Source of the DNA: Octopus sinensis
Taxonomy: Eukaryota
Direction: 5' to 3'
Assembly: GCF_006345805.1 (NCBI RefSeq)
Contig: NW_021835993.1
Location: 62,001-126,000 of the forward strand
DNA: 64,000 bases
Part shown: piece after piece, positions 32,241-61,591 of the stretch
Numbering within the stretch: the first letter of the stretch is position 1
Layout: every line of letters begins with the position of its first letter
The notes under the pieces: model-generated
Seen by the model: the letters and a program-made list of their open reading frames with translations, nothing else
Databases searched by the model: none
What the model was told of the DNA's origin: nothing
Translations under genes and position numbers: made by a program

Positions 32241-32420
32241 AAACAGCCAATTTTTTGTTCTCTTTTTAGCTTATGTTTTTAAATTTTTTACTCTCATTTT
32301 AAAATTATTCGAAAAAGAAACCAGGTCTATAAATTATTTTATTACCAACTTTGGTCAGTTTAACATCTTTATCTTATTTTTAATCTATCACGGGAATAAT
32401 ATTTATCATTAATCTTATGC

Positions 32421-33879
32421 CATATTGGAGAATGTCAAGAAGAGGATAAATATGTTGTCAAAAACAAACCTGAATGCTGTAAATTTGTTTCGTGGAATCA
32501 ATGAATATGCATTATCCCTATATAATTATTATATTGGGCTAATCAATATTGAACCTTACGAATTTGATGAGATTGACCAACAAATACGCCGATTACTTAC
32601 GACTCTCAAGTTACACCTCCAGCCTGCAAATAAGGAGAGGTTGTATTTGGACCGCAAGACCCTTGGAAGAGGACTTGCCTCAATTTCTTTCAAAAGCGAA
32701 TTAATGCTCTTCCAGTTTCTTAAAAGTTTGGAAAAACAGTCGACTACCTGTCTGCGGAGGTCGGGTATTCTGCGAGTAATAAAGGAAAAAAAATGGCACT
32801 TAGCCACAATCGCAGAATTTCTTGTCTCCAAATATGCAGCTGTCGGCAGGGAAAATCTGACCATTGAGTTACTGAAGGACGCACAAAGGAAACTCTTGCT
32901 TAACCGAATTAACAGTAAATCACTACACTCGGTGATGTTCAAATGTATGGAGGAATCAGATGTGGACATATCTACTTCTTCGCAATGGCTATCGAAAGGG
33001 AACAATGGTCCACGAAGCGAAGCATTGTACTGTCTTTTGCAAGATAGGAATTTGTTCTTTGCATACACGGGATCACTATGCGTCCACTGCAAAAAAAGCA
33101 GGCAGACTGTTGACCATCTAGCCACGCGGTGTGGTAGGATGCTAAACAGTGATTATCTCCGAAGACACAACGAAGTGGTAAAGTGTATTCATCTCCACTT
33201 GTGTCGAATGTATGGAATAAAACGAAGCAGGAAATTGAAAGGACATTCAGTCGTGTCAACAATGTCGACCCAAAATGTCGAAATCAGAGTTGACACTTCA
33301 ATTATGACTGAAACAAAGGTTCAATTCAATAAACCTGATATCTTCGTTTATGACAAGAGGAAAAGAGAAATTCATTTAATCGAAGTGGGAGTTACCTCGC
33401 AAGACCGTTTAAAGCAAGTTGAAGTGGAGAAATTTCACAAATATGACCTGCTTGCAAACGAACTGTCGGTTCTCTATGAAGCAAAAGTGAAGATTATTCC
33501 AATTGTCTTGACATGGGATGGAGTTGTCTCAAAGTTCTTTAAAAGTCATATGGACAAATTATCCATTGAAGAAGGAACGAGGACATACATCCAGTCGGTT
33601 GTGCTGAAGAGGACTCTAGAGAGTATGCTTATTGAACACAGACATGGGATGAAGGTAGACAACGAGGAGTACGCCTCTGCCGCCAATCAACTTGCGGAGC
33701 TGGCATGTCGTGAGGACACTCAGTTGAACAATTACTTTGACGCAGAAATGGAAAATGATGAGAATTTTGTTGCAAACTCTTCTTCCAAGCGAAGAAGAGA
33801 AATCACTGACGATCTGGATTCTTAAATAATTTAAGATAGAATTTACATAATTAATTTTTATTAATAAAAGCATATCTGC
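32421..33879 (+). mobile_element. 5'-truncated RLE non-LTR retrotransposon (R4/NeSL-like), uninterrupted 466-aa ORF
   Basis: ERLYL.RK.LGRGL thumb region, CCHC knuckle CVHCKKSRQTVDHLATRC, YLRRHNEVV, endonuclease NKPDI..LIEV..EKFHKY. Absent from copy B, whose empty site reads tcttatgc|taaggtac at ~57008. Confidence 0.93.
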
Positions 33880-34425: not shown

Positions 34426-34559
34426 AAGATATTAGTAATAATGAAATTTATCAAATTAATTTTTGTGTTTTTTCTTGTCCCATAATTAATCTTAATTTAA
34501 TTTAAAATTAGTAACACAAAATGATTATAAAACCTCATTCAATAAAATGCGTATGAACT

Positions 34560-35091
34560 ATGAACAACAAAACTAAACTGTCAGAAAAAGACATGCTAAG
34601 TTTGAAAAAGAAATAGTCGTTAGATTATAAAGAGGCGTTCTCCCTCTTTGAGAAGGACTGCGAAGGCACAATCACCCAAAATGAACTTAAACACACAATC
34701 CGCGCACTCGGGCACATATTTTCGGAGGACGAATTCGCGGAATTTATCATTAAACAAAACTTTCAAAGTTGAATTGTTTTTAGATATTGAGATAAAAACA
34801 ACTTCAATTTCACCGAATTTGTGGAGATTATGTCCACTAAATTTGTCCCCAAAAGTCTGGAGAAATCCTACCGCGAAACATTTAAGTTTTTGGACAGATC
34901 GAACGACGGGATCATTTCCGCGGACGAACTCGCAAAAGCAATGCTTAAATTGGACATAAATCTAACTCCGGAAAATGTGATGAGAATGATTAGAGAAATT
35001 GACACCGACAACAGTGGCCTGATAGATCTCGAAGGTTGGCGTTTAGCTGTCTTTCTTAGAATTCCTCTCTCTAATGATGGCCAAACAATAA
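34560..35091 (+). CDS. Calmodulin-like four-EF-hand protein, copy A
   Basis: YKEAFSLFEKDCEGTITQNEL..RALG; NFTEFVEIM; FKFLDRSNDGIISADEL; MIREIDTDNSGLIDLE|EFLSLM. Three introns of 24-25 nt. Confidence 0.85.
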
Positions 35092-35289
35092 TATTTTTAT
35101 TGGTTTTTAATTGGATTAAATTTCAACAAAACTCACAATGAATAAATTGATTAATGTTTAAGACTTTCTATACAGTTGATGTCATCGTTTTCAGGTCGTT
35201 TAGTTATCGAACAAACATTTAATATTACACTAAAATTAAGATATGTGAAAATTTGCACGGTTTCTAGCCAGTTGATAGGCGTTAAAATA

Positions 35290-35960
35290 ATATGAATGAC
35301 TGGTAATGCACTTCGAAAATTCGTGTTGTTAAAACCATCGGCGATGAATTTAGTGAAAGAACTGGGAATTTATGATCAGTAGAGGTGTTGTTCGCGCCTG
35401 CATCGAAGAGGCTCAGAGCATTGGAAGAATGTTTGAATGGCGTCATTAGCGGGAACAGAGAGATCCATCCGTAGTATGTGGCCGAAGAGTGTCCATCGGG
35501 TTTTATAATAGATGTCTCCAAGTTCTTTGGAAACAGAGTATAAGTTTTGGTTTTTGATCTTCATCGGATAGTGTATTTCCAGTAATGCCTTGAGATGCTT
35601 CCTGTGAAAAGCACTGAGATTTTCAACACATTTCTGATCCAGTCCTCATGTTTCTGAGTTGTATAGTATGATGGGCAGGATGAAAGTCTTGTAACAATGC
35701 ACTTTTATGGGATTTGAGAGAAGCACGTAACTCAAACATGTTGATTTTTGCTTCTTCGGTGCCAATGTCGTCAACATCTTTTTTCATTAGACATTTTCTT
35801 AGTCACCAAGCAGTGACCCGACTTTTCTTGATCTCCTCCACATCTTGCCAGTAACTTTACTTTTTCGTGTGATAAACTCAGTCTTTTGTCCCTTCATTTT
35901 TAGTCATTCAGGTTTTCTGAAACAAAATCTATGTCGTCCGCATATAGTAATTCTATAATA
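35290..35960 (-). mobile_element. Decayed RTE-like LINE 3' remnant
   Basis: LLYADDIDFVS, KVGSLLGD, RWTLFGHILRM. Duplicated at ~58420-59080. Confidence 0.7.
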
Positions 35961-36029
35961 GAGGTCGGCTCAAATTAAATCTATATTTTTACAATTAATT
36001 TCTCACGTGTTCGTTATTATGATTTATAA

Positions 36030-37113
36030 TAATAAAAAATGAAGCAAAAGACTTATTTCTTTAATCCAATTGGACTGAAGAGTTTGCATTTGTCATAAAT
36101 TCTAAAAACTTGGATGTTTAACGTCAACGTTTAAAAATCCAATATTTATCAGACTTCTACTACTGCCAGTTTTATTTTCAGTCAAGTTAAAGCTACACCC
36201 GTAGAAGCTGTTATTAATAATTTTGATACTAATCACATTTTATTGAATAAGATTGTTTAAATATCAACAAATGGTGCAAAGAACATGGTTGGATCTAAGA
36301 AAGGTTTTGTGACAATTTTGAGATATAAAATTGAACATGAGATATAAATTTTCATTGTGTCATGAAGTTTTTTGTTCTCAAACATTTCCTGAAGATTGAC
36401 ATAGAGATTAAAACGATTGAGTTACCCTATATTAAAGAAACTCTTTTATCGATAAATAAATCATTTCAGAACAGGTCAGAATTAAATAAAAAATTAAAGC
36501 AGAATCCAGATTTTAGAAAAGAAAAATCTACCTTCATGTTTGTTACTTCTGATTGCAAAAACAGAAGATCTAAATTTTGCACCATTTGAAATAAAATTTT
36601 TTGAATTCAAGATGCAATTACTGGAATTAAAGAATAAGAATTATGGCCTAAAAGTTTATTCACCTAACCACCGAATAAAAAGAATTAGAAAAAAAATATT
36701 CCCAACAATTGAAGTAAGAATTAACTTAATATTCGTGCGGAAACACGAAATAGAAAGACAAGATTTATTAATATTTGATGTATGGAATAGCCTCCCTGAG
36801 ACATTTTATCTATTAAAAAAATTCGCATTTGGAATTATAACAATATTTAGATCAACCAATATTTGCAAAAATTCATTCTCAGAAATGAATTCAATAAAAT
36901 CAAAATTGAGGAGTCACCTAACCGACAAAAAGTCTTAATTTTTGTGTAAAATTAAAAATGACTAAACACTGTCAACTGAGATAAAGGGACAATCGTTGCA
37001 TTAATTATTTAATACTTTCTATGTTTAAATTTTCTTTCATGTTTTCTTTACAAAATATGAATTCCTGTTTAAATAAAAAGTGACTCTTTTCCACAAAAAA
37101 GTTGCCGATTCCT
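36030..37113 (+). mobile_element. Decayed hAT (Charlie/SPIN-like) transposase remnant with right end
   Basis: FNPNWTEEFAFV, KMQLLELKN, WNSLPETFYLLKKFAFGIITIFRSTNICKNSFSEMN.IKSKLRSHLTD; end aaaagttgccgattcctg. Duplicated at ~59150-60243. Confidence 0.8.
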
Positions 37114-37266
37114 GGCTATACTCATTGCTGGTGCATATGCGTTAATGATTGTCAGAAGCTTTTTCTACGGCATTATCTGTAAGACTGATATCCTGTCATT
37201 GATTCTCCAGTATTTGTGAATTGAGCTGGGATGGCGCTTATTGATTGAAAATTCATGTCTATGGTG

Positions 37267-37487
37267 CAGGGGTCGGCAAAATACGGCCCGCGGAGCAATC
37301 CAATCCGCCCCGCGTATAGATTTTTATATATTACCGATAAAATAAATTTTTTTAGATAAAATATTTAATTTGTACTTTATTCAATTAATTAATATTAGCC
37401 TTAAATAAGTAAAAAAAATTATCCGGCCCGCAGACCAATAATTTTTTATAATCCAGCCCCTGAAGTCGGAAATTCTGCCGACCCTTG
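37267..37487. mobile_element. hAT-type MITE (~220 bp)
   Basis: TIRs caggggtcggcaaaat and attctgccgaccc(t/c)tg with internal ggcccgc motifs. No clear TSD. Copy B at 60396-60616. Confidence 0.75.
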
Positions 37488-37938
37488 GAAATTCGTTCCG
37501 GTTTTGGTAAGATAATTCTATATTATTTAACAATCACATCGAAATCCTTGTTGAGCTTAGTTTCTTGAAGGTAAGCTACTAAAAATCCATAATAGATTAG
37601 TTCCTCAGTCAATTGTGTTCTTCGTAGTGAATTCCTCTGACATGAACGTCATTATACGAACTCTCCAGAATATGTATTATACAGTAGTGCAATAGAGAAA
37701 TGTCTCCACCTTAATCTAAAAGTCTAAGGTTTATCCATGAGGACCAACTATTTAAACTCTAGCCAACAAAATGTGCGCAGTATAGGGATTATTTATATTG
37801 TGCATGTTGCTAATAATAAAAGTGGGAATGAGAGAGGTTCCTGGCCGAATCATTCGACTAGTTATGACGATTAACATTTGACTACGACAAAGTACGAATA
37901 AACAAATTGCAAGTCAATTAAATGATAGAGAACTGAAT

Positions 37939-38461
37939 TTAATTTCCCAGAGGTATTTTGAGTAAAAGACGACTTTCTTTGATGTCACTAAGTTTGGTAC
38001 AAAACTGTCCTACTCGAATAGGGATTGGTGTTCCTCCCATTTAGTCCTCTCCAAATAGCCGTCTTGTGCAGCAAACAACATTGTCCGGAGTTTGTGCATG
38101 CAGTCCGCCTGGTTGAGCGTTCTCCGTTCAGTGAGATCAGAGCGGACGACAAGTCTGTTCTCTCTGTCAATACGGGTAGGGAACTGCAGCAATGATTCTG
38201 TCGAAATACCATTTGGACTATTCTTTCGCTCAGTCTCTGATTCCCCCAGTTATTCAAGTCCATTCTTATCTCGACGGCTACCAATGTCAGAAGTGACTTA
38301 CCGTGGGGGGACTTGGGGCAGTCGACCATTGTCTGTCCGTAGCGGAATTCTAGCTTATCTAATATGAGTGAGTAATGGTAACCGATGGGGATTTCTCCAT
38401 TGAAAGAAGGGCACTGCACACAAAACAGTCTTTTAAAACGTGAACCAAACCCACTAAACAT
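37939..38461 (-). CDS. ICT1/mL62 (MRPL58)-like protein lacking the GGQ motif, copy A
   Basis: Spliced: FNGEIPI|DKLEFRYGQTMVDCPKSPH|AVEIRMDL..RIVQM|FPTRIDRENRLVVRSDLTERRTLNQADCMHKLRTML (cf. ICT1 IPLDRLTISY..KAEVRFHL..KINRLGELILTSE.SRYQFRNLADCLQKIRDMI). Confidence 0.7.
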
Positions 38462-38504
38462 GATTATTATAATTCGTTCTATTAATATTTCAAAACAATT
38501 AATA

Positions 38505-38690
38505 ATGCAAAAAATAGGTGGTGTGAACGAAAAATCAGACAGGAAGTATAATTTAATGACCGAGGACCCGTGGCAGAACATTCCCCCGTCCACCTACGAA
38601 GAAGCTCAGGAATATTTCCATCAAATTATGGACGAATATTCACATTCCCGAGCCAAAAGAAACCACAAATGGAAAAAACGATTCAATTAA
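38505..38690 (+). CDS. Small protein, possibly MPLKIP-like, copy A
   Basis: Short ORF retained in both duplicates. MTEDPWQNIPP resembles the MPLKIP SMLEDPW motif, which is only a short match. Confidence 0.35.
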   Translation: MQKIGGVNEKSDRKYNLMTEDPWQNIPPSTYEEAQEYFHQIMDEYSHSRAKRNHKWKKRFN

Positions 38691-38739
38691 CTGGCCTTTT
38701 CTTTCTTATCATTTAATTAACAACATTTGAATAAAAAAG

Positions 38740-40374
38740 TCAAATCCTTAACGAGGCAAACTTGCCCACAATGTCGGCCAATTCGTCCGTCCGAGTGAAC
38801 TTTCTCCGATTTCTACAAATAGCCCGACACGACAACTTGGCAATGAAGACCTGAAACATTGGCACCAAATAAGGCGGAATGATGTCCCCAGACATGGACT
38901 TGCCACCAATCCGAGAAAGCAGTCCAGTCGGCTGTGACTCAACACACTGACCTGATCCCCCTCAGACTGGAGTAAGCACACACACCCACCCGCAGTAGTC
39001 CACACATCACCAGAATGTCATTGGCATTACCCACGGCGACCTCCCTCGAAGACATGACGAGTAAGTGAGTGAGGACGTGGTCTATGTACAATTGAGGGAC
39101 ACTACTGAATATGGCCTGCTGTGTGGGGGAGGGGGGCAGGCCTATGCACTCCTTCAACACCTCAATTCCCACAGAGGATGAGTCCCCCACCACTGCCTCC
39201 TCAAACTCGTCCTCACTGTCCAATTAAATGCATCCACAACTCGAATAGGCCAATCTGGTCGGACTTGAAGCCAAGATGGAATAATTTCTCACGCACTTGC
39301 TCAATTCCGGCCTCCCCCAACTCATTCCCGTTCAAGTTGAGCCTTCCACCAACAGGAGTCCCCCAAACCTCCAAAAAATGGAGTATGTGTGATGTGGACA
39401 GACCGCAGTGGCTAAAGTCCAGTGTCTAAACATATCACAACAGCCAGACGTCGAAATGTGCTTCTGAATAGGAGAAGGCCAGTCCGAAGGCGGGGAAAGC
39501 AACTCCCGGGTAGTTATCACTGATATTCAACGACTTTAGTCTGTTCATTCCATAAAGAGACTGACATGATTAGTGTGGTTAACCAAGGATAATAAAATGG
39601 CGCCAGTTTTGTGCATGTTGTTGTCAGAGACGTCCAGTGACTCCAACGTGGAGGACACCGAGGACAAGGCCAGGGACAAATGTCTGAATCCCTCGTCCAC
39701 CACCGAATTTCCCTTCAACTCCAAATTTCTCAGCCTCCTTAGTCTCTAGCACATTCTGGGGGGAAATTAATACGGAAATAATTCTGCTCATTTTGGCCGC
39801 CCCAGCATCCCCCAGTCTGTTTCTGGAAATATGAAAATTGACAATTTCAGAGGACTGAGTGAGCCAATACTCGTCCAACATCTGGGAGTGGCCCACCAAC
39901 CCAACCTTGGCACCCTCCGGTCCCAGTCCAGTGTTGTTGAGGTTGAGAGTCTCCAATTTGTGAAAGACCTTCGACTGGAAGTACTCCTGCAGTCCCGGGA
40001 GTGCCAAAGGACCGATTGCGTTGTCGGACAAGTCGACCTCCCGAATGGACTGGATGACTGACATGGACTGGCCGAGGAAGGTCTGGACTGATGGATGTGG
40101 CCTACCAGGGCTGCCGGGATCTCTGTGCTCGACCGGCGAGTGAACATGTTGGACAGGTTGAGGACTCGCAGTGACTTGCAGTGAAGGAGGGCCTCCGAGA
40201 TTTCCCTACAGGCATCGACGCTGTAGGAATTGCCGGAGAGACTGAGTGAGAGCAGAGTTGGACTGTTCTCTCGGATTTGCTCACATATTGGTTGTGCTGT
40301 CGATTAATTATATTTGTACCCTCCTCTGCGGTGTTGATGAATGCTCCCGAGTCAAAACACAGAGTCTCACACAT
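38740..40374 (-). CDS. RANGAP1: Ran GTPase-activating protein 1, copy A
   Basis: LRRs LSLSGNSY, LNLSNMFTRRSSTEIPAAL, VDLSDNAIGP, LNLNNTGLGPEGAK, ISRNRLGDAGA, LNGNELGEAG; short acidic DSEDEFEE; GLLR|SE C-domain. One 1-nt deletion near 38903 relative to copy B. Confidence 0.88.
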
Positions 40375-40439
40375 GATATGAAATATTAGTCTAATTAATT
40401 CAAAGTTATATAAATATTAATATAATAATAAATTAAGTG

Positions 40440-41136
40440 ATGGAGTGTATCTCGTGCTATGTGTCTGACAGTGACAGTCCTTCCAGCACGGAGGAGACGC
40501 CCTTCAAAATCCGTTCGGTTCCCCACGTGATCGGGAATTGGTCAGTTCACGTGTATATAGACTGCACTCAATGGGGAGGGAGGAGAGTGGTCCCCCACAA
40601 GTGGGAATGCGTGGACAGTCCCCACATCAGTCTCTCTCGGACTGTCTACACGACGAGGCAGTGCATCAACCCAATCTGCGAGTCCCTCCACCGGGTACTC
40701 TCCCTCCACTCACACTTCCACGTCAAACTCGACGACCAACTCACTTACTTCACCAACGACAGCCACAATCGGTTCCCAGAGAGTGCACATTCTTAGAGAG
40801 TTCGCCGCCCTGGTGGTTGTGGAGGGGACGCGGAGACTCGCCCAGCTGGTGGGGGATGTGGACAGAGTATTCCACAAGTACCAATTGGAGGAATACTACC
40901 AAGTGAGGGGGACTGTCATGTTTGCAGGACCCGACCTTCCACGTCAGTCTACTGTGGAGGAACAAAGGAAGGAAGGACTATTGCCTGAATGGATATGAGG
41001 TGGTGGTGGACTGTTATGGTAGGACATGATTGGGGAGTATTTGGGGGAGGAGTACTCCGTGAGGTATGTCCACGTCAAACTGGGTGGGAGACGACATTTT
41101 GTCATCCAATTGGCTACCAAACAGTCATTTGATTAA
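40440..41136 (+). CDS. USB1: U6 snRNA phosphodiesterase (2H family), copy A
   Basis: IRSVPHVIGNWSVHVYI and two HxS motifs (PHISLSRT; spliced YYQ|DPTFHVSLLW). Introns of 25, 25 and 23 nt. Confidence 0.88.
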
Positions 41137-41139
41137 TAG

Positions 41140-42141
41140 TTAATAACAATCCAAGACTAGATAAGTAGAATAGAGAAGGCATCCATTATGTACTGGGGGT
41201 GAAGGAGGACACACAACCTGCTGGTACCCCACCCGTGACTTTGTCCCCAACTGGGAGGGCCACTTGGAGAACACATCCCAACAGTCCATTACGATCTTCC
41301 TAATCAGACAGAACTGATCCAGTTTGACACTATTCCGTAGCACAGTGGCACAGAAGGCGGAGTAGTCGTGTGAACTGGAATGAGACGGGAGGAATACAGA
41401 TTGTAGCCCAGGGCAGTCCTCAACTCACCTGCATTGAGCACTACTCTGTCGGTCGAGTTGGCCGAGAAGAGGGTGACACATTCTGACACGTATTGCTTCA
41501 GTCGGACAAAGTCTTGCATGTTCAATTGGTCAGGACTTGGCTCGTGGGGAGTGAGGGATACCTGTGAGTGCAGAATCGCTTTACGAGTATCCGACATACA
41601 CGCTCGTCGAATGGACGCTTGTCTGAGTTGACGAGTGCGCTCTGCAATTCTTGGACGGATATCAATCCCGATCGGTTCACGTCGATCGACTGCATGTGGA
41701 CAAATAACCAATACAGTGAACCACGCCTCATAGGAGTCCTGGGAGTGTGAGGAGGCGGAGTAGGCAGTCGGACCCCCCATGTAGTTCTGTTGAGGGTTTG
41801 GAAAGTTTGAGGTGGGATAGGCAGGCGGTCCTCCCATGTAGTTCGGTTGTGGGTTTGGGAGGTTTGAGGTAGAATAAGCAGATAGACCTGGAATGTAATT
41901 CTGTTGGGGGTTTGGGCAGTATGACTGGTTGGGGTTCTGGAATTGTCCGGAAAACTGTCCGTGCGGGGAAGGGGGCTGGTATGGGTAGTTATGCGGATTT
42001 GCTATAACTTAATTGCAAATGACTACATGTGTTGGGGTTGTCGTAGGCAAAGTTGTAGGGCTGAGTAGAGCGGGGGAGTGAGTTGGGATTTCCACTTTGA
42101 TTCCATTGGTTATCGTACGGGCCACCACCAGGATTATTCAT
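41140..42141 (-). CDS. PEF1: Penta-EF-hand protein, peflin-like
   Basis: Long G/P/Y/Q/N-rich N-terminus with repeated YMGGP(P/T)AY, then AWFT|SIDVNRSGLISVQELQSALVN..FDERVCRIL and LNAGELRTAL. Confidence 0.75.
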
Positions 42142-43311
42142 TGATATTTTAATAGATTTGATTTAAATACACTTAATCATATCCAAACATCCAGGTGAAA
42201 TAATAGAAAAACGAGGGTTGCAATTAATGAGAACTTTATGGAGGCGCAGTTTGCCAAATTCACAATTTTTCCTCCGTCGCCTAATGAGGGAGCTCTTGAA
42301 GCTACAAGAAGGCCTTTAAAAGCAGCCGAAGCTAAAAGGATACGCCAATAAATACGGGCCATATATCTGGAGGCATTTCCTTAGATCAGGAAACCTTCCA
42401 TACAGCCCTGGGACTCTCTCCACACTCAAGTCGAAACATTCGAGGACATTTTTATCCGCCTAATATCATTCCATTGGGGGCTCTCCAGCACCTCCTGAGG
42501 TTTGGAGAGGCTAAGAAGTGTGCACGTCCGTGGTCTGATGTTTAGGGCCGCAGGGAAAACTTAATATGATCGTCAAAATATTTAATTGTGGGCGACATAT
42601 GCCCTTTCGCCTGGGATCTGATTTTTACTCATTATTCGCAACAAATATTCTGCCAAGTATTTTTTCTCAGAAATTTCGGTCTGAATAACTAAAAAACTTT
42701 CAAGTTTCAAAGAACATACTCGACATAGAATGATCCTAATCCTCTTTCTTCTTGATAAGTATTTCTTGCAGGTCGAAGATGTATTTGACGTTCCATTAAT
42801 TTGGATCGAATTATTCTATCAACTACTTGAAACAAAATAGCAAGAGGATTTGAAGATAAGAATTTCTTTTGCCACTTAAGGATATTTGGGTAATAATAGA
42901 CAACTAAGTGGATCCATTGTCTAAATAGAGATAAACTATTAACCTACTCTATTCAGAATTTGCCAAAACTTTATTGGCAGGTTCAACGGTCTTGTTTAAG
43001 TCAATCCAAACAGCAAACAACCATAATTCGTCATTTGATGCATAACAAAATCTCTTAGTCTCCATTCCATTGTATCCACAGAATCAGTAGAGGAAAGGAA
43101 TTGTTGAAAAAAGTGGTGTTGGCATTGTGGCTGAGTTTTCAAAACCATAATAAATCTGGACAAGTCCTGTCTTTTTATGGGTTTTATTGTATTTAGTGAT
43201 GCAGTCGAGGAATGGGGATTGAGGAACACCACGACTAAATTAATAAAATTATATTTTGATAGTGATTGAGTGATTGGTGAACGAATGGATTGTTGCTATA
43301 GCAACGTTATT

Positions 43312-43970
43312 ATGGTTGACTGAATGGTGGTCATTGCAGGGATTGATGAATTTTTTGACTCGATTCAGTTTCGGCCGAAAAAAGAATCTCAAGATTCTAA
43401 TGCTGGGACTCGACAACGCGGGAAAGACAACAATTCTCAAGACACTCGTCCTGGAAGACATTTCCACGACCTGTCCGACTCTGGTGGGTGGTCGCAGTCT
43501 GATTGCAGGGGTTCAACATCAAGCACGTGAAACAGAAAGGACTCAACATGACGGTGTGGGACATTGGGGGACAGAGGAAGATTCGGCCGTATTGGCGGAA
43601 CTATTTGGAGAACACGGATGTGATGGTGCAGTTGGGGGGTCATTGTAGATATACGTCATCGACAGCACTGACCGGAAGAGACTGGAGGAGAGTGGTTATG
43701 TAAGTCCCCGACTGATTCCAGGAGTTGTTCGAAATCCTGGACGAGCAGATGCTGAGGAATGTGCCTGTGCTGGTGTTCTGCAATAAACAGGATCTGGTGA
43801 CTGCGTGCCAGACTGACGAGATTGTGAGGTCGCTCAGTCTGTGCAACCTGAAAGGGCATGCCTGGCAAGTCCAGCCTTGTTCTGCCAAAGCAAACGAGGG
43901 TTTAAAGGTAGTCCCCGATTAGTGTCTGTAGGAGGGGTTTGACTGGATTCTCCAGGTCATGAAGAGGTGA
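43312..43970 (+). CDS. ARL3: ADP-ribosylation factor-like GTPase 3
   Basis: Six exons (3, 144, 117, 51, 186 nt and a last exon) with introns of 25, 25, 23, 22 and 24 nt. Motifs [12 protein letters not shown]|[31 protein letters not shown]. Confidence 0.95.
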
Positions 43971-44067
43971 CTCAAATAAATATTCTACTTATTTTTTAAT
44001 TAACGGCCGTGACTACTGGTGGCCATTCTAAGACAAAATCATCTGTTTAAGCCATAAATAAATCCAA

Positions 44068-45941
44068 TTAGGCAACCTTAACTTGGGTATCAGTATAAAC
44101 CACTGCCTCAAACACCCACTTTTGTGAACCGTCCCCCGAACAGTCCGACAATTTGACCTCGAATTCCCCATCCTTGGCAAGACATCGAACTTTGGTCCCT
44201 TCAACATATTTCAGCAAGTGAGTCCCCTTGGAATAGAACAGGAGCGACAGACTGAGTCATAACTCCACGGCCCTTCCCCGAAGTAGTGATAGTCCAGTCG
44301 CATGACGGCGTCGTCCTGGGAGTACAGTCCCCTCTCCGACACCCCAATGTGTCCTCTCGAGTCCAGTCGGAAATACTACCACCTCCCTCAGCCAGTCAAC
44401 CATGTTCATGCAGGGCAGTTCAGGACAGCGGGCGAGACTAGCACGACTGTTGACATCCTCATTGCCCGAAGTGAGACACAATGTCGAGTCCACCAACCGA
44501 ATCTGAGGAGTCAGACTACGTGCACACATTTCCGAAATGGATGTTCTCATGAGGGTACGGGTAGCTGTCCAGTAAGAAAGGGGCCACGTCTTTCATAAAC
44601 CAGGAGAAGGATTTGCACTGCAGTCGATTCTTCAATGCAATCTGGTCCCTCACATCCACACTGAACCCATCCAATTCGGGATGTCGTCGATAAAAGTATT
44701 TCCTGTGCTCCTCATCAAACCAGGTGTCGACCACACGTTTGTGATTCTGTGTGTTCTATAAAGTTCTCGAATACTCCACCAGGTCAGACAAAGGGACTTG
44801 AGAAGTGTATTTGCTACTCGCCGTGGATCGTCCAGGACCGCGGTAAACGTGACCAATGCGGGAACAGGGAACCCACAACACAGCCCCATGACACATCCAC
44901 ACTTTGAAGGACAGTTCGTATTGCTCTCCTCCCCAGACAAGCAGTCCCTGGTCATAGTACCCCAATTCTTTAAAGAAGTGTCGATCAATTGCCAACAACC
45001 CCCCTGCATGGGTGGGAGAATGGTATGGCTCGCTTGACAGTTTTCCTTTCTGGAGGGGCAGATTGGCCTCCTTGTAGAAGAATCCCCACTCAAATATGCC
45101 CACGGGATTGTCACGGGAGGAGTAGACAGAAGAATACTCGAACGTGGCCCAGTCAATCCCATCGATGACAGGCACAGCAATCGCCCGACTGAATGTCATT
45201 CTCGATTATACCTGTTCTCCTTTATTACCGAAAGAAGAGGTGGCAGCCAGTTTGTGTTGACTTCGCAGTGAGCATCCAGGAAGATGACGACCTCCCCCAA
45301 GGCAGCCTTCGCTCCCCTCGTCCTCGCTGCGATTAGTCCCTCATTCTCCTTGTTTCGAATCATCCGCACGAGTCCTCCATACTCCAACACCTTCAGTTGG
45401 AAACTAGTCACCAAAGCCTCTAAATAATCGAATTATGCACACGACCGTCGGATGTTCCGTCGTCCACCAAAATGACTTCTTTCAGCAAATTGGGAGGGCT
45501 TCTGTCGATGATGGAAGTCACTGTTCTGAACACCACAGAGAGCGACTCGTAATAAAACACCAGAATGACTGAAGCTGTGGGCAACTCTTCCGGGTAGTCC
45601 CAGAATTTGCATCTGTGAATGAATATACATTCGTACTCCTCATTCCGCGTGTCCAATATTGTTCTGTTTAGAGCAATCATTCTACTTATCTCGTCCTTGT
45701 AGCCAAATGGATAGGAGGGGGCCTCCGGGTTCGTCTTAACCCCTCTCCCATTCTCCCCCGGGCCACTTTGAAATGCAATTTCCTGCGGTTCGTAGTTGCC
45801 ATACACACCATGGTGGTAGGCTGGTGATAGGACTGGGTGGGTCGAGTGTCTGAGAAGTGTCAGACTAAAGACGGCCACAACTGATAGTATCACGATTGAT
45901 ATCTTTTTTCGGAAGCTCAGGAAACCAAACACACGAAACAT
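44068..45941 (-). CDS. Polypeptide N-acetylgalactosaminyltransferase, GALNT7/PGANT7-like
   Basis: N-terminal [88 protein letters not shown]-terminal ricin-type QKW. Confidence 0.93.
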
Positions 45942-46718
45942 TGATAACAAATTTAAATACTTGTCCAACTAAATAAATTAATAAATCAAAATACTCTCAA
46001 CGTAGATGACTCAATCAGAACGTAAGAATTGTAATATGAAAGAAAGTATGTGGATTGAGTAGAACGTGGGTTGATTGACATATCCGTGTCAGCAGAGTGG
46101 AGTCGATAAAAAGACTTTAACGGAGGAGGTGGACAATAAACTGACTCTAAGAAGTGGACAGGAAGATTCAATTGGATGTCTTTGTTAGCCCTTGTGATGA
46201 GGGAATACCTGCAAGAGTAGACCGCTCTTTACGTTTCTCCTTTTATAATTCTTAATTTTACAAACCAGGTTCTCAACCATTTTTGGCTCAAGGGCCAGAT
46301 CGATCATTTTTTCAAAAATAACGACTTGAATCGAGAGGCAGTCTCCGTGGAGAATTGAGACCGAGACGCCTGGAAGAGAATCGATACTTATGAGTACAAA
46401 AATATTTTATTAATTCGTGTACGAATATCAAGAATCAGATCAGGCCAACATCCCCTCCTCACTCCCAGATGACCTCTTTCCATTCCCTAAGCAATCTCAG
46501 TCGTCTCATCGCACTTCGTGACCTTTACTTGCTGTTGATTTTTTTAAATAGGAAAACCGGGGATCAACTAACTAACTAAACGTTCCCCAATAAGGACAAT
46601 GACATGAATTGGTGAAACAAGATCAATTATGGGGCTAATCAAATGATATAAACTACATGTTTAACAATCGCAATATAATCCACTGCTATTTGTGAATTTA
46701 CTTATAACACGAAGCATA

Positions 46719-47700
46719 TTAGACAAGCATATCAGCAAAAAAGTCATCAAACTCCTCCTCCCTAAACGTGGACAGACACCCCAACCTCGTCTTGTCGTCC
46801 GTCAGTACGAGTGGGCCACGCCAAATGGAGTTGTCCTCCTCGGGCTCACGTTCCTCGACTGCCTTCACTTGTTCTGGCTCACTGGCGGGTTCCTCCTTGA
46901 CTTGTGGTCTGATGACTTGTCGGTGCTTTCGGTGGTAGTTCAACAACTCCGAACAGTCGACGCACAGTCCTGTGGACATTACCCAACATGTCACTCAGTT
47001 TGATCAATGCCTGCTTCTGAACGGCCTCCTCCGTGTAGACAAAGTTGACTTCCCAACTGCGAAGTCCATCCTGGCGAGTACATCGAAGTGACCCGCATAT
47101 GAACTGTCCTTGAAGTACAAGAGGGGAGGATACCCTTCCCGTCGATGACCTCCGCCTCCGTCCTCCACCTCATCCCGATCTACCGTCACCCACCCCTCTC
47201 ACTTTGTTGTGCTTGTAGTGCTTCAGGTTGGCCAGACAGTACTCGTGGTATAACTTGTCGTAGTACTTCTTGGCTAGTTTCTTTCCCCTGGGAGTATAAA
47301 CAGACAACCAACCAAGTATCCACTGCCTCGTCCTCGTCCCACAAAAACTTGTGATTTTCCTTAATTGTGTCCAAATCCGACTTGAAGGCCCCCACTCTAC
47401 ACGTCAGGCCAATTCCTACTCCTTTCGCTGATAGGGGCCCAGTGTCCCTCCGTGGTAACGAAAGTAGTCATTCACGAGTTGTTTGTGTCGGGAATACTGG
47501 GAATGATGGTGAGGCATTACAGCATCCATGCTCATGTATTTCGCACGAATCCCCTTCGCAGGTCTGAGTTGGTCATCGACGAGATACCTTTCTAAGTCGA
47601 CGGTTTGCGTCCGCCGTTTTCTTCCAAAGTCGTCCACCAAGTCTGCCTTTCGTCTAATTGTGTATTTTATTTGCTACTTTGATTTATTCGTTGAATCCAT
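46719..47700 (-). CDS. FRA10AC1: FRA10AC1 spliceosome-associated protein
   Basis: YSRHKQLVNDY, SDLDTIKENHKFLW, W|GKKLAKKYYDKL, MRWRTEAEVIDGKG, LCVDCSELLNY, terminal EFDDFFADMLV*. Confidence 0.9.
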
Positions 47701-47879
47701 TTCCTTTAAAGTTGAATTAAACTTGCATGCTACCCAACAAAACACTTTTTGAATATTAATTATTATATTTGTAATACTCCTCTCATTTATTAGAATTACA
47801 AATATTGTTATTTAAAAAGAATGAAAAAACAAACAATCTTCTGAGTGAACTATCGGGGAACAGAGGGAATCGGAAGGGA

Positions 47880-48935
47880 TTGACAAAACATATTCGGGAA
47901 AGGGTGGCACATGTGAGGTAACTTTACTAACGTTGTTTTGCGGTGTGTTTATTAATAATAGTGTCGGAGAGGCCGACGAATACCTCAAAAGTCGATAAAG
48001 TCAACTCAAAAATAAATAATTATTTTTTCATAAAAATATTAGAAATACAATTTCGAAGTTTTTTAGGTCAACTTTGTCAATTTTTGTGTCATTTTTTAAT
48101 TTTCCGTCTTAATATTTTTAAAAAATATAAATATCAAATTTTGAGCCGCACCGACTTATTTAATTGTTGTTATGTTTTCTAAGTCGAAAAAATGGTACTT
48201 TTTGTAATAAATAATGAAAAATAATTAAAATCTATTGTTTATACGTCAAGATTTATACATTGACTAAAATTGTAGATTACCCTAAATCCTACTGAAGCAT
48301 TTGTATCAGCAAATATTTCCTTGTATGAACTAAGGAATACTGGGTTAATCAATTTTTTCAATACTCAGAATTCAAATGTCGAAATAATGTCAAAATTTTG
48401 GTAGAACGACGTGTCGATGAGATAATCAGCTTGTTAATTAACGAAAAGATGTTCTTATTTGTGAATATATTCTTACTGGGAAAATAACGGATACTCAAAT
48501 CAACTAAACCTTATCCCCTAAAACGGAAACCATATTGATTCGGAGAGCAATGAAATCAATTAAAAATAAAGGACTTTTTAATGATTTAAAGGAGATATGG
48601 AATAAATATTTCCCCACTCGTTGATGTTCTTAGTGAAATTGACTCGATTTAAAAGAAGATACATGTAAAATAAATGAATATAACGAGAAGAGATTGAACT
48701 CGAATGAAATTCTAAAAATTGTCAACGGAGATGGAATTTTTTAGCCTTTGGAAAAGTTTAAACTACTCCAGTGTCAGGCTACTGGGTGTTCGGTGGAGCC
48801 CTTGTTTTAAGTTTTTCATACAATTTTGGCCAAAGACCAAAATTTTAAAACTGAAAAAGTCAAATATTATATGATTGTATATAATTGTTGTTTCTAGAAA
48901 AAATTATTGCTTAAAATTTATCTGTAAAACTTCTT
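47880..48935 (+). mobile_element. Decayed DNA transposon remnant (hAT-like C-terminus)
   Basis: AT-rich with broken peptide TPVSATGCSVEPLF..HNIL.KDQNFKTEKVKYYMIVY. Weak evidence. Confidence 0.35.
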
Positions 48936-48940
48936 TTTAT

Positions 48941-49073
48941 GATCAAACTGAGTGACATCCTGGGTAATGTCCCAGGACTGTGCGTCGACTGTTCGGAGTT
49001 GTTGAACTACCACCGAAAGTCAAGGAGGAACCCGCCAGTGAGCCAGACCAGGTGAAGGCCGCCGAGGAACGTG
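48941..49073 (+). pseudogene. Inverted partial duplicate of FRA10AC1 (exon end, intron, exon)
   Basis: Matches the reverse complement of ~46846-47005 (caggactgtgcgtcgactgttcggagttgttgaactaccaccgaaag identical), with a ~24-nt internal deletion and a few substitutions. Confidence 0.9.
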
Positions 49074-49082
49074 GACATTTTG

Positions 49083-51357
49083 GTCAACTTTCCTCTTTTT
49101 GAATCAATTTTGTTGACTTAATGGAGGTCAATTTTTGCTTTTCTGGACAACTTTGTGGTTGCCCTACTTATAAAATTTGAGCTAAAATGTTGTGTGATTC
49201 ATTACCAAGTCAAATAAACAGGTGAACCAACCTAACCTAAGACAGAGGGACGGTTTTCCCGTGTGGTTGTGACCAAGAGTGATAGCGAGGGTTATCAACT
49301 GGACTGATATATCAACCACTTTTTGATAGCCCGGGGGTGACGCCATTAGTAAAATTAAAGTCCAATTAGTAATAGTTTAATTTCCACTGAAATGTGTGGA
49401 AATGTCCCTGAAGCATCTGGAAATCTTGTGGAGAATATGAATTGCCGAGTCGAGAGATTCAATGTTTTTGGAGGCAATCATTTTGTTGACCAGTTGCCCA
49501 AACGCTCGAATTTCTAAAATAGGGAGAACTGGAGAACGAGAGGCGGCGATGGACATATCCGTGGTTATCCCCGAGTTCTCCTGCTCAGTGTAATTGACGA
49601 ACTCTCCAATCAGTGATAAACAGCAGTTTGCTCGCTGGTAGGCATATCCACAAGTCTTGATGATTGCGATGGGCGAGTCTCTTTTCTCGAAATGACGTGT
49701 CACCTCCTCCAACTGTGAGGCTGCGACTAAATCTGGGAGGCCAACCACAGACGGACAGGAACTGGGCAAAGTCGAGAGCGTCGAGTCCCAGGGTAACTGA
49801 ATAGCGGAATTGGTTTCGCCAGAGTTGTACTGCTTTGGTCATTTCCTCTGATTTGCCACAAGACAGGACATTCTCCATGAGGACTTCCAACGAGCCAATC
49901 GACCGAATCAGTTTGAGGGCGACTGGGAGTGAGGACAGGTGGCCAACCGTCCTTCTTTGTGCTGGTGATGGCCAGGAAGTAGAGGGCGTTGAGGAGTTCT
50001 TTATTGAGAAGTCTGACGGAAGTGGATTGTGAGTCCCAGTCTTCTTCCTACCATCCAAACACACCACCACCGATTTCAACAACTGGTCGACTTGTTCCAC
50101 TGGCTGGGGAATGCGGAAGACCAGGTCCACCATTTTGTGGCAGGTAAGGAGTGAGAGGTTGTCGCGGAGTGTGGAGAAGAGGGTGTAGAGGGTGTTGAGG
50201 GACTTGATGCTGGGGGTGAGGACGAGAGCCAACCTGATGAACTCGTCCTTGGCCTGGAGAGAGGAGTAGGTGGAGGACTTGACGACCTGCGTGATTGAAT
50301 AATGGCACTTGTTGGCATGTGTGGAGAATAGTCAGTCTGAGTGTGTCATCTGTGCACTGACTGGTCATGAAGATGGTGATGGGGACTGTCCGCTCGATTA
50401 TTTCCCGTAGTTGGAGTGACTTGACCATGTAGGACGCCGACTCGTTCATGGAGACAATCTCCCTCAACTGCAGTCAGCCACTCACCCCACCTTTTCGTGA
50501 CACTGACTGAAGATGGCCGCATTCCGTGGACAGTAGTCGTTGTAGTAGTGCTTGTGCTTGTACGACAGGGCCAACTGTCGCAGATTCTTCTTCATTTTGG
50601 CCAATATCAAATCCACGTGACCCTGACATGTCGGACGAGTATTACTTGACATGTGTCGTCGAAAGGGGATAGGGTTGTGTAGTTGGACACACTGTTCATC
50701 AGTTGGATGATTCCCGCCAGGATATTTGATATTTTGGCAGACTGGTTGATTGAGAGGAGTTCCTTCTGTCGAGTTTCGGCGTCCCGAATGACCTGCATGA
50801 TCATTCCCTTGAATTCCTAGACGTCGCCCAAGTCCCTTGCCTCGAAGGACGCCCTGCAGAACTTGCCCCCCAACAGACTCCGCTGAATGAGTGCCGAACT
50901 GTGAGCACAGCGCAGTGCAAACACTCTGCACTTCTTGTCGTCCATCAACAGGAGGATCTACCAATCACGACACCCCCAACGTGTGATATCGATATTACAA
51001 TCTTCTTGTTTGTCTCAAACAGTCTTCCAATGTCCAACTCCGACGTGTTCGTGGACAGTCCCTCCAACAGGGAGTCCAATATTCGGCATGCCTTCGACGT
51101 CTCCTCTGCCAGAATCTGCGAATGACCCATATGGACGACCGGGTCTGCTTTCGAGGTGTCGACAAGTGCGATTTCGGTTATTTTTTTAGCCGACTGGATG
51201 ATGGAGTAGAAAGCCGATGCCTCTGTGCCTGCTTTTCCGCTTTTGCTGTCAAAAGTCTTGATCCAGAATTCGCACATCTGGAATGTTGGATTAAATACTT
51301 TCATATAAATTGGGTCGACAATTTTTGGAGGGTCTTCAGTTCGTAGCCGCAGTCCAT
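49083..51357 (-). CDS. Divergent vinculin/alpha-catenin superfamily protein, multi-exon
   Basis: Helical-bundle peptides KTLQKIVDPIY (cf. TVERLLEPL), LLLMDDKKCRVF (cf. LLTFDEAEVRKI), IRDAETRQKELL (cf. MIDERQQELT). Ends approximate. Confidence 0.5.
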
Positions 51358-52071
51358 TGCTCTACATTGGAGTAGTCAGGGGAGGAGGGCAGTCAGTAAA
51401 ATAATATATTTGCAGCATTTAAACATACCCGATTACCAAGTTCTGAGTTTAAATAAATGTATTTCATTTTGGGCCATATAAATAATTAACTAACAAATTA
51501 AATAAATATAAATTAACAAATAAATGTTCCATTATCCTTTTTATAGCAGCTCGTGATGTATTAGCTTAAAGTAAATAGGATCAGAGCAAAGGAGACCTGA
51601 ATGTAGAGAGAATTCAACTTTGGAGTAGTTGGTCTATTCTCAACCATCGTCATGGATACAGAAAATCGAATTTGACAAGGTGGCGAGTGCACTACTATTC
51701 AGAGAGAGAACAATGGCGAGTATTTGCTCGTCCAGCAGCCTTAAATAGTCCCCCACTTATTCGATTGATTGGGAGAGGAGTGTTCTAAATAGTGGGGTTT
51801 TATTTCTATAAAGTAGGGCATGTATGCGGAAAGTTGCGGGCTGGAGTTGGCCTGTTCTGTTCTCGCATAGTTCATTGGCATATTCGTGAATAATTAGTTA
51901 ATTGGGTTCGTCAACAGAAACCCCTCAACAGCCCTATGGCCACCACAAGACCAGTCCTCCGGCAATCTGAGGACCAACTAAATCAAGGAAACTAGCCAAT
52001 CCCCCTAATGGTACCCCAAAGTAGTACTCGACATGCTTATAAATACATCTCGGATTATATATTAGAATTTG

Positions 52072-52699
52072 TTATTTTCTTAAAGATTTAATAAAATTGG
52101 AGATTTTCTTTTCGCCCATTTTTATGTCGTTGGCGACAGTGCCCAGCACGCCGGCCTATGAATGCAGCAGACGACCAACCTCCGACTTTTCTGCCCTGTC
52201 GTTGTCGGCGATCCTTTTGAGGATTTCAGTTTTGGATATCTCGAGGACGAGTCCGCCCATTACAATTTCGTTGAGAACTTGATGGACCTGCCAGTGAGAC
52301 ACAAGCGAGGACAGTATCGACGTGGAAGACCAAGTCGAGTTCACACACATTGGTGAAGAGGGCGTCCAGAATTTCGACAAACACTTGAATTAGGTCGATT
52401 ATGGCGAGAGGGCTTTCGAGTGAGTCAATGTAGAACACAAAGTGGAGAGTGGCATATGTCCTGTACACCAGAATGCCGTCCTTGCCGCACAGTCTGGCAA
52501 TGAGAGAGCACTTACTTTCCCCCCTCCACGAACGAGCAGTCCTCGGGAGTCCGGCCAGTGATGAGTATGTACGTGTCCTCTACTAACTCCCGCTGTTCTC
52601 GCTCAGACTGGCTAATCAGTGCATGTTTACGTAGTGCTCGTAGAATTTGGTCAGACGAGGTTTCCCACTTCGGTTGAACACGAGAACTGCCTTAATCAT
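52072..52699 (-). CDS. AP3S: AP-3 complex sigma subunit
   Basis: MIKAVLVFNRSGKPRLTKFY, YRTYATLHFVF, IDLIQVFVEILD..NVCELDLVFH, EIVMGGLVLE. Confidence 0.93.
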
Positions 52700-52787
52700 T
52701 CGACTAATTAATTCTATTTTATTCAAACAGTCCTTTAATACATTGTTCGAAAATACACTACAATCCAATATAAAGACATTAGCGGTT

Positions 52788-53295
52788 ATGAGTGAACATG
52801 TCGGCTTTTGGGTGAATTTCACGAAATATAACATCCACTTGGTCAGACTGATTGCCAAAGGTAGCCGCCGTATTTCAGTCCAGGCGCATTCGGACTAATC
52901 TACTTGGGAGTGGACGTCCGAACCAAGTCGAAATATGTGGTCAAGAAACTGGTCAAGGGCGATAAAATGCGAGTCGAAAATGAAATCAGAATTCAAGTAG
53001 TCGTGGTAGAATAACACCTGAGAGTCTGTTCAACAAGTGCGACAACATTGTCCATCTCATCACGTGGAATCAAATCCACATCCTCGGGGAAACTCACTTT
53101 AATTTGCTGATGGATTTTTGCCAGGGTCTCACTTTGTAGGCATTGAAGGCGGCTCCCTCCACGACTACTTTGTCAAGCCCAGAAAACTCAGTCACCTCGA
53201 AATTTACTACATTTTCATCTCCGTTCTGAAAGCCCTGGAGAAACTCCACTGCATGGACCCGCCGATCATACACCGAGACCTCAAAATTATTTAAT
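52788..53295 (+). pseudogene. NAK-family (GAK/AAK1-like) Ser/Thr kinase truncated at the duplication junction
   Basis: Spliced LIAKG|AFGLIY..YVVKK..ENEIRIQ|..NIVHL..LLMDFCQG|G..LHCMDPPIIHRDLK, then immediately copy-B sequence (II*). Introns of 23, 26 and 23 nt. Confidence 0.85.
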
Positions 53296-57677: not shown

Positions 57678-58210
57678 ATGAACAACAAAACTAAACTCTC
57701 AGAAAAAGACATGCTAAGTTTGAAATACAAAATAGTCGTTAGATTATAAAGAGGCGTTCTCCCTGTTTGAGAAGGACTGCGAGGGCACAATTACCCAAAA
57801 TGAACTTAAACACACAATCCGCGCACTCGGGCACATATTTTCGGAGGACGAATTCGCGGAATTTATCATTAAACAAAACTTTCAAAGTTGAATTGTTTTT
57901 AGATATTGAGATAAAAACAACTTCAATTTCACCGAATTTGTGGAGATTATGTCCACTAAATTTGTCCCCAAAAGTCTGGAGAAATCCTACCGCGAAACAT
58001 TTAAGTTTTTGGACAGATCGAACGACGGGATCATTTCCGCGGACGAACTCGCAAAAGCAATGCTTAAATTGGACATAAATCTAACTCCGGAAAATGTGAT
58101 GAGAATGATTAGAGAAATTGACACCGACAACAGTGGCCTGATAGATCTCGAAGGTTGGCGTTTAGCTGTCTTTCTTAGAATTCCTCTCTCTAATGATGGC
58201 CAAACAATAA
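57678..58210 (+). CDS. Calmodulin-like EF-hand protein, copy B
   Basis: Near-identical to 34560-35091. Confidence 0.85.
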
Positions 58211-61068: not shown

Positions 61069-61591
61069 TTAATTTCCCAGAGGTATTTTGAGTAAAAGAC
61101 GACTTTCTTTGATGTCACTAAGTTTGGTACAAAACTGTCCTACTCGAAGAGGGATTGGTGTTCCTCCCATTTAGTCCTCTCCAAATAGCCGTCTTGTGCA
61201 GCAAACAACATTGTCCGGAGTTTGTGCATGCAGTCCGCCTGGTTGAGCGTTCTCCGTTCAGTGAGATCAGAGCGGACGACAAGTCTGTTCTCTCTGTCAA
61301 TGCGGGTGGGGAACTGCAGCAATGACTCTGCCGAAATACCATTTGGACTATTCTTTCGCTCAGTCTCTGATTCCCCCAGCTATTCAAGTCCATTCTTATC
61401 TCGACGGCTACCAATGTCAGAAGTGACTTACCGTGGGGGGACTTGGGGCAGTCGACCATTGTCTGTCCGTAGCTGAACTCCAACTTATCTAATATGAGTG
61501 AGTAATGGTCACCGATGGGGATTTCTCCATTGAAAGAAGGGCACTGCATACAAAGCAGTCTTTTAAAACGTGAACCAAACCCACTAAACAT
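61069..61591 (-). CDS. GGQ-less ICT1/mL62-like protein, copy B
   Basis: Same exon structure as 37939-38461; loop reads EFSYGQTMVDCPKSPH. Confidence 0.7.

What the first reader, a model, noticed from the sequence alone, without database searches (positions are those of the whole stretch)
34768..53148. Splicing by ruler: acceptors appear chosen by distance in 21-30 nt introns
Seen: every intron I could infer from protein continuity is GT-AG and about 21-30 nt. The donor consensus is reduced to little more than GT (GTTG, GTCT, GTGG, GTTT, GTTA and GTTC all occur) and there is often no pyrimidine tract. A good YAG early in the intron is repeatedly skipped for a later and sometimes worse AG. Examples: calmodulin-like 34768-34791 gttgaattgtttttAG(16)atattgAG(24); RanGAP 39773-39746 gtattaatttccccccAG(18)aatgtgctAG(28); RanGAP gtaggccacatccatcAG(18)tccAG(23); kinase gtagccgccgtatttcAG(18)tccAG(23) and gtctcactttgtAG(14)gcattgaAG(23). 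Inference: the spliceosome has a hard minimum of about 21 nt and uses length more than sequence signals. Tiny introns are already known in dicyemids, some ciliates and nucleomorphs. The explicit skipping rule is the testable addition.
Basis: partly seen in the sequence, partly recalled or inferred. Interest (0 to 1): 0.75.

Follow-up and report, generated by a model that had tools for sequence, protein, structure and literature searches.

The report
Dicyemid tiny introns spliced by distance
This DNA likely comes from a dicyemid, a tiny parasite sequenced along with its octopus host; its genes are interrupted by predicted introns of 22-35 bases that pass over every early AG and end at the first usable AG about six bases beyond an adenosine lying 16-19 bases from the start, which likely is the branch point, so a known kind of tiny intron gains a testable distance rule.

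Summary
All five cited segments exist, and homology or reading frame supports the later AG. The window lies on a parasite contig inside an octopus assembly; RPS13 points to a dicyemid, where such introns are published. With a spliced aligner that had no length preference, 398 pooled introns (4 longer ones set aside) were 21-38 nt, with a floor at 22 apart from one doubtful 21. YAGs ending at positions 8-20 were used 0 of 79 times; at 23 or later, 323 of 326. But distance does not act alone. An adenosine is nearly required 16-19 nt from the donor, and AGs at 22-26 tend to be skipped when no such A lies six bases upstream. The floor is best read as two spacings: donor to branch A (16 or more) plus branch A to AG (about 6), followed by ordinary first-AG choice. 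U2, U6, Prp8, SF3B1, SF1 and Slu7 are present. No RNA was seen. Tiny introns, weak signals and a weak A are in print; I did not find the explicit acceptor rule. This scan reached the same reading earlier on other DNA of this genome.

The parts
34768..34791 (+). 24-nt intron of a calmodulin-like gene; TAG at 16 skipped, A at 17, rare GAG acceptor
   Evidence: (host position shared, margin 300); paralog L167 has a 25-nt intron that skips TAG at 17 and ends in AAG
35035..35059 (+). 25-nt intron of the calmodulin-like gene; TAG at 12 skipped; exception: no A between 16 and L-6
   Evidence: (flagged as near a short host exon)
39746..39773 (-). 28-nt RanGAP intron; CAG at 18 skipped; A at 17, 19, 20
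   Evidence: (host position shared, margin 140)
40083..40105 (-). 23-nt RanGAP intron; CAG at 18 skipped; its A (17) is the only candidate branch A
   Evidence: (host position shared, margin 100)
43312..43972 (+). ARL3 gene with introns of 25, 25, 23, 22, 24 nt (43315-43339, 43484-43508, 43626-43648, 43700-43721, 43908-43931)
   Evidence: three introns match host ARL3 positions; first and last read by eye from frame
44227..45636 (-). GALNT7-like gene, introns of 24, 26, 23, 33, 25, 26 nt (a seventh call, 25 nt, had margin 0); the 33-nt one skips an in-frame TAG at 24
   Evidence: against 18 database homologs
46762..47520 (-). FRA10AC1 gene, seven introns of 23-25 nt
   Evidence: against the host's intronless 355-aa open frame
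52156..52630 (-). clathrin adaptor small-chain gene, introns of 23, 22, 25, 24 nt; TAG at 19 skipped in the first
   Evidence: (host paralogs, not the ortholog)
52861..52883 (+). 23-nt kinase intron; CAG at 18 skipped; its A (17) is the only candidate branch A
   Evidence: early AG gives a stop
52997..53022 (+). 26-nt kinase intron, GAG acceptor, TAG at 13 skipped; donor could lie 3 nt later
   Evidence: frame only
53126..53148 (+). 23-nt kinase intron; in-frame TAG at 14 skipped; A at 17; AAG acceptor
   Evidence: 4 of 5 copies lack the early AG

Best explanation
These are predicted U2-type introns of a likely dicyemid whose acceptor is likely set by two short spacings: a branch adenosine at least about 16 nt from the donor, then the first TAG, CAG or AAG whose G lies about six or more bases past it. 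An AG nearer the donor has no usable branch A upstream of it, and an AG at 21-24 is skipped when the available A is too close; the two spacings add up to the 22-nt floor. Shown from DNA and homology: lengths, AG use by position, the positional A. Inferred: that the A is the branch point, that steric limits set the spacings, that splicing occurs as predicted.
For: Pooled 398 introns: YAG ending at 8-20 used 0 of 79, at 21 1 of 7, at 22 4 of 7, at 23+ 323 of 326. All 19 introns with a single A between position 8 and L-3 have it at 16-21 from the donor and 5-8 before the last G (18 in the window 16..L-6 vs 4.1 expected). No A at 16-19: 31 of 398 vs 100 expected; control positions 10-13: 129 vs 95. 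Non-GAG AGs ending at 22-26: with an A in 16..p-6, 192 used and 3 skipped; without, 9 used and 11 skipped (Fisher p 6e-11). 29 of 40 skipped early YAGs do have an A 5-8 nt upstream, so the A must also be far enough from the donor. A branch model fits far better with both 5' and 3' position terms (log-likelihood -4.5 vs -43 and -45; shuffles -82 to -105). All five cited introns have A at 17. Threshold rule on held-out genes: 36 of 37 and 23 of 24. U2 with GUAGUA and U6 with ACAGAGA lie on parasite contigs.
Against: No RNA or lariat was seen. As a predictor the two-spacing rule (360 of 374; 22 of 24 held out) does not beat a plain threshold (363 of 374; 23 of 24). 4 of 29 window introns lack an A in 16..L-6 (two have one at 15). 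AGs ending at 15-19 are depleted (33 vs 71 expected), so they may not be invisible. Never-used AGs also reflect selection: only introns that splice correctly survive. The branch motif is weak, and most data come from 11 dynein genes.
Confidence: 0.66

Rival explanations
1. Single end-to-end ruler: the spliceosome takes the first acceptable AG at least 22-23 nt from the donor, and the A bias is secondary.
For: A plain threshold predicts 363 of 374 acceptors, slightly more than the two-spacing rule; length alone picks 327 of 374 donors vs 294 for the donor matrix; 9 of 11 introns of 34 nt or more have no AG from 23 to the end.
Against: It does not explain the near-obligate A or why AGs at 22-26 are skipped mainly when that A is missing; RPS13 skips TAG at 22, four bases past an A at 18.
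Confidence: 0.12
2. 3'-anchored unit: the AG and an A 6-8 nt upstream are recognised together (fixed branch-AG distance); early AGs fail only because the lariat would be too small.
For: Single A's lie 5-8 nt before the end in 19 of 19 cases, including three 27-nt introns with the A at 19-21; the A peak moves from 17 to 19 as length goes from 23 to 27.
Against: In the 130 introns of 28 nt or more an A at -5..-8 is not enriched (lacking in 32 vs 25.1 expected), whereas an A at 16-19 is weakly enriched (lacking in 18 vs 25.9; 16 of 400 shuffles as low). A 3' matrix without distance picks 188 of 236. This rival shares the donor-branch minimum with the best explanation.
Confidence: 0.14
3. Sloppy splicing plus surveillance: early AGs and exonic cryptic sites are used at a real rate, and nonsense-mediated decay and selection leave only the productive form visible to homology.
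For: Early AGs are depleted inside introns; in-frame (3n) cryptic pairs in exons are most depleted (O/E 0.63-0.64) and 78 of 110 3n introns carry a stop vs 127 of 264 others; homology can show only the productive isoform.
Against: Exonic depletion after strong donors is larger at 22-35 (0.80-0.81) than at 8-21 (0.94), as a floor predicts; the published D. japonicum annotation has minimum 20 and 10th percentile 22 (PMC13644364 supplement), though that minimum could be an aligner setting.
Confidence: 0.06
4. Artefact: the segments are assembly errors or products of the alignment method.
For: 33 of 726 unfiltered dynein and Prp8 calls were 20 nt or shorter; the SND1 run gave 13-17-nt calls.
Against: Those calls fail length-blind quality filters or sit at spurious host micro-exons; 59 of 67 filtered Prp8, clathrin, Brr2-like and ARL3 introns share position and phase with host introns.
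Confidence: 0.02

Closest known systems
Ultra-short introns of dicyemids and myxobolid myxozoans (PMC13644364; PMC6543705; PMC6736024; PMC2222250)
   Same: Length (D. japonicum median 24, Dicyema sp. median 27, D. acuticephalum mean 26.2; here median 26), donor reduced to GTa, acceptor to AG, no pyrimidine tract, ancestral positions, and a weak A stretch that lies further from the AG in longer introns.
   Different: In the parts I read, these papers do not tabulate used against skipped AGs, do not place the A relative to the donor and give no acceptor rule. The species differs from the published D. japonicum RPS13 sequence.
Human donor-to-branchpoint space constraint (PMC11291888; PMC6692369; abstracts read) with first-AG choice after the branch point (AG exclusion zone, PMC9284458, listing only; otherwise recalled)
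   Same: A minimum donor-branch distance, then the first suitable AG downstream.
   Different: The human minimum is given as 46 nt; here about 16. No pyrimidine tract, and only about 6 nt from A to AG.
Stentor coeruleus 15-16-nt introns (PMC9505925, passages read)
   Same: Positional branch A without consensus; conserved U2 and U6 motifs.
   Different: There the A is at 10 or 11 and follows the 3' end at near-fixed length; here lengths span 22-35 and the A leans towards the donor side.
Fixed branch-AG distance in Yarrowia, Trichomonas, Giardia (PMC2483917, passages read)
   Same: Short branch-AG spacing, no pyrimidine tract.
   Different: Those have a strong branch consensus and few introns; that paper found no branch signature in 41 Dicyema introns, whereas here a positional A is clear.
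Paramecium and Bigelowiella nucleomorph short introns (PMC5014332, PMC6009652, PMC12862383; passages read)
   Same: Weak signals; intron size proposed as a recognition signal; 23-26-nt introns spliced best in P. bursaria.
   Different: No branch A was discerned in B. natans; no skip rule in the passages seen.

Membership tests
Dicyemid ultra-short spliceosomal introns | Narrow length peak at about 22-30 nt | tested here: met
   369 of 398 at 21-30 nt, 396 at 22-35; 4 longer ones (48, 49, 73, 91) set aside
Dicyemid ultra-short spliceosomal introns | GT-AG ends with reduced consensus | tested here: met
   GT 381, GC 17; TAG 209, CAG 119, AAG 69, GAG 1; information content
Dicyemid ultra-short spliceosomal introns | Introns at ancestral animal positions | tested here: met
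   59 of 67 share position with host introns; calmodulin and RanGAP
Dicyemid ultra-short spliceosomal introns | Organism is a dicyemid | tested here: met
   Host Prp8 1815 of 1815 identical to an Octopus bimaculoides entry; parasite RPS13 shares distinctive residues and the presence/absence of four introns with D. japonicum, compared by eye. No rRNA or tree; RPS13 is on other contigs of the same parasite set.
Dicyemid ultra-short spliceosomal introns | Removal shown in RNA | not testable with these tools
   no RNA holder listed
Major (U2-type) spliceosome | U2 with GUAGUA, U6 with ACAGAGA | tested here: met
   U2 on dynein contig C8698; U6 contigs share parasite repeats
Major (U2-type) spliceosome | Prp8, SF3B1, SF1, Slu7, Brr2-like helicase | tested here: met
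   each gene carries tiny introns
Major (U2-type) spliceosome | U1 snRNA, U2AF65/35, Smu1/RED | not tested
   no result was obtained for these
Fixed branch-AG systems (Yarrowia, Trichomonas, Giardia) | Strong branch consensus | tested here: not met
   motif only nTnA(not G)T
Fixed branch-AG systems (Yarrowia, Trichomonas, Giardia) | Constant branch-AG distance at all lengths | tested here: inconclusive
   5-8 nt in 19 single-A introns but no enrichment at -5..-8 in 130 introns of 28 nt or more
Pure length-defined splicing without a branch signal | No positional sequence requirement inside the intron | tested here: not met
   A at 16-19 lacking in 31 vs 100 expected

The most novel reading that the evidence does not exclude
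In this animal the branch point is placed mainly by distance from the donor (16-19 nt, about a third of the human minimum) rather than from the 3' end through a pyrimidine tract, and the acceptor is then simply the next non-GAG AG at least six bases on; the A of a skipped AG can itself be the branch. That would need a remodelled, very compact spliceosome assembly path.
Probability: 0.4. Interest if true: 0.7.

Novelty: new variant of a known kind. Interest (0 to 1): 0.45.

Why it matters
PMC13644364 ends by saying that how such introns are recognised is open. The rule here turns that into precise predictions (which A, which AG, which spacings) for lariat sequencing and minigenes, and gives a natural lower bound for donor-branch distance in an animal. 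It also improves gene annotation in dicyemids and flags parasite contigs in a host assembly. It is not a new kind of splicing: both spacings have counterparts in human splicing at larger scale.

Tried and rejected
RNA runs: no RNA holder listed. RanGAP homologs: none from the protein search, the structure database or the genome search; the host gene was found through its C-terminal family. Host ortholog of the kinase: not found. Ab initio model with flat length prior: 144 of 149 exact at posterior 0.9 on held-out dynein and Prp8 genes but noisy on about 0.7 Mb of other DNA, with 15 of 98 calls under 21 nt; not used for statistics. SND1 against the host: rejected, the rebuilt host protein is full of spurious micro-exons copied from the draft. 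Dyneins on C12461 and C12468 dropped as near-duplicates. Two parasite species: considered because intron GC and length vary between contigs (Spearman -0.26); rejected because only one non-host type of Prp8, RPS13, SF1, Slu7 and SF3B1 appeared. The single 21-nt intron is a multiple of three without a stop and may be a coding insertion (read by eye). Myosin loci were located but not analysed. Ogino et al. 2010 was not held; it may already describe some of this. Supplement S9 of PMC13644364 is a picture and could not be seen.
Full report
Observation. All five cited segments are at the stated coordinates. Pfam places them in calmodulin-like, leucine-rich-repeat and kinase genes, among ARL3, GALNT7, FRA10AC1 and adaptor genes (150 frames scanned, chosen mostly from 304 listed). 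Against host proteins rebuilt from the same assembly, the calmodulin-like intron and both RanGAP introns are the best splices and coincide with host intron positions. The early AG breaks the frame in four cases and adds three residues in the fifth; in that fifth case 4 of 5 copies on the contig lack the early AG at unchanged length. Paralogs of the calmodulin-like gene repeat the pattern: TAG at 17 and TAG at 21 skipped in 25-nt introns (read by eye).

Source. The window lies on an unplaced 360-kb contig of a 2.7-Gb assembly. Its repeat fragments match only unplaced contigs, which hold a second, compact set of Prp8, dynein, clathrin, SF1, Slu7 and SF3B1 genes beside long-intron copies on chromosomes. 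The chromosomal Prp8 is identical to an Octopus bimaculoides entry over 1815 aligned residues. The compact RPS13 shares distinctive residues and its intron pattern with D. japonicum in the supplement of PMC13644364 but differs in sequence (by eye). A dicyemid co-sequenced with its host is the inference; no rRNA or tree was made.

Method. I wrote a protein-to-DNA aligner that allows any GT/GC..AG intron of 8-300 nt at one flat cost, with no splice-site scores. Thirteen dynein heavy chains and Prp8 gave 726 raw calls, 33 of them 20 nt or shorter. After dropping two near-duplicate genes, length-blind filters left 255 strict (22-38 nt and one of 91) or 338 relaxed introns (adding one doubtful 21); looser filters let in one 9-nt and one 17-nt call. 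Held-out genes added 40 (3 over 45 nt set aside) and 24 (11 window introns under a looser filter). The pool is 398.

The skip rule. YAGs ending at 8-20 were used 0 of 79 times, at 21 1 of 7, at 22 4 of 7, at 23 or later 323 of 326; AAG 0 of 55 up to 22 and 69 of 72 later; GAG once. Given the donor, 'first YAG at 22+ or AAG at 23+' is right in 247 of 254 strict and 328 of 337 relaxed introns, against 76-80% with a threshold of 12, and in 36 of 37 and 23 of 24 held-out introns. Where two or more AGs compete it gets 227 of 236, a leave-one-out 3' matrix 188. In the finding's interval it gets 26 of 29 once one mistyped coordinate is corrected; the misses are two GAG acceptors and the 33-nt GALNT7 intron. 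Internal non-GAG AGs are 6 vs 25.1 expected at 23+, but also 33 vs 71 at 15-19, so early AGs are tolerated, not neutral.

The hidden signal. An A is nearly required at 16-19 (lacking in 31 of 398 vs 100 expected). In all 19 introns with one internal A it lies at 16-21 and 5-8 nt before the end. AGs at 22-26 are used 192 of 195 times when an A lies between 16 and six bases upstream, and 9 of 20 times otherwise. Early YAGs with an A 5-8 nt upstream are still skipped (29 of 40). A mixture model needs both position terms. In introns of 28 nt or more the A is not enriched near the 3' end and is weakly enriched at 16-19, in line with the published remark that the A's lie further from the AG in longer introns (PMC13644364). 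All five cited introns have A at 17, and in both 18/23 cases it is the A of the skipped CAG. Against this: the two-spacing rule predicts no better than the threshold (360 vs 363 of 374), and 4 of 29 window introns lack such an A.

Donors and exons. Given the acceptor, the donor matrix picks 294 of 374, length alone 327, both 356; the exon side carries 1.22 bits, +3..+8 0.17 bits, length 2.3 bits against a flat 12-60 range. In 116 kb of exons, strong cryptic donors are fewer than in synonymous shuffles (753 vs 856) and AGs 22-35 nt after them are depleted (O/E 0.80-0.81 vs 0.94 at 8-21 and 0.91 at 36-47). Hundreds of such pairs remain, so something else, such as composition, exon-binding proteins or decay, must separate introns from exons; that is unexplained.

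Machinery. U2 and U6 on parasite contigs keep their recognition motifs; Prp8, SF3B1, SF1, Slu7 and a Brr2-like helicase (name inferred) are present. U1, U2AF and Smu1/RED were not examined.

Literature. Eight searches. Read: PMC13644364 (main text parts 1-2 of 3, supplement passages; figure S9 not visible), passages of PMC6543705, PMC6736024, PMC2222250, PMC9505925, PMC5014332, PMC6009652, PMC2483917, PMC13685798, PMC12862383, abstracts of PMC11291888 and PMC6692369. Tiny dicyemid introns, reduced signals and a weak A are published. A used-versus-skipped AG rule or a donor-referenced branch position was not found in these; Ogino et al. 2010 was not available. Earlier notes of this scan reached the same reading on other pieces of this genome and a similar one in another genome; I consulted them after my own tests, and they are not independent support.

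Verdict. A real feature of a known kind. Interest 0.45.

Noticed in passing
window 34530-41870 and 57650-64000; contig C12464: The gene block is present in two to five copies at 97-99% identity along the 360-kb contig: recent segmental duplications or uncollapsed haplotypes.
   Followed up: partly
window 52788-53290: The kinase copy stops at a repeat boundary near 53284; a copy at contig 138.0-139.9 kb continues for about 500 residues with further 22-28-nt introns.
   Followed up: partly
window 34768-34791, 52997-53022; L093 second RPS13 intron: GAG acceptors appear in three places although none occurs among 374 other introns; used where no other AG is near.
   Followed up: partly
dynein and Prp8 loci L052-L079: Third-position GC ranges from 0.27 to 0.60 between genes and intron length falls with GC: strong regional composition differences in one small genome.
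   Followed up: partly
pooled introns: 3n introns carry a stop more often (78 of 110) than others (127 of 264), a decay-surveillance signature like that reported in ciliates.
   Followed up: partly
L099:1991-2090, L100:2101-2200: The parasite U6 has a shortened 5' stem-loop (100 nt) with an intact core.
   Followed up: no
L197 (host C27): The host FRA10AC1 match is a single 355-aa open frame, while the parasite gene keeps seven introns.
   Followed up: no
window about 2335-5116; contig 333.7-359.8 kb: Tandem arrays of about 95 and 169 bases.
   Followed up: no
window 32413-33825: A 470-codon open frame without a Pfam match; looks like a retroelement remnant by eye.
   Followed up: no
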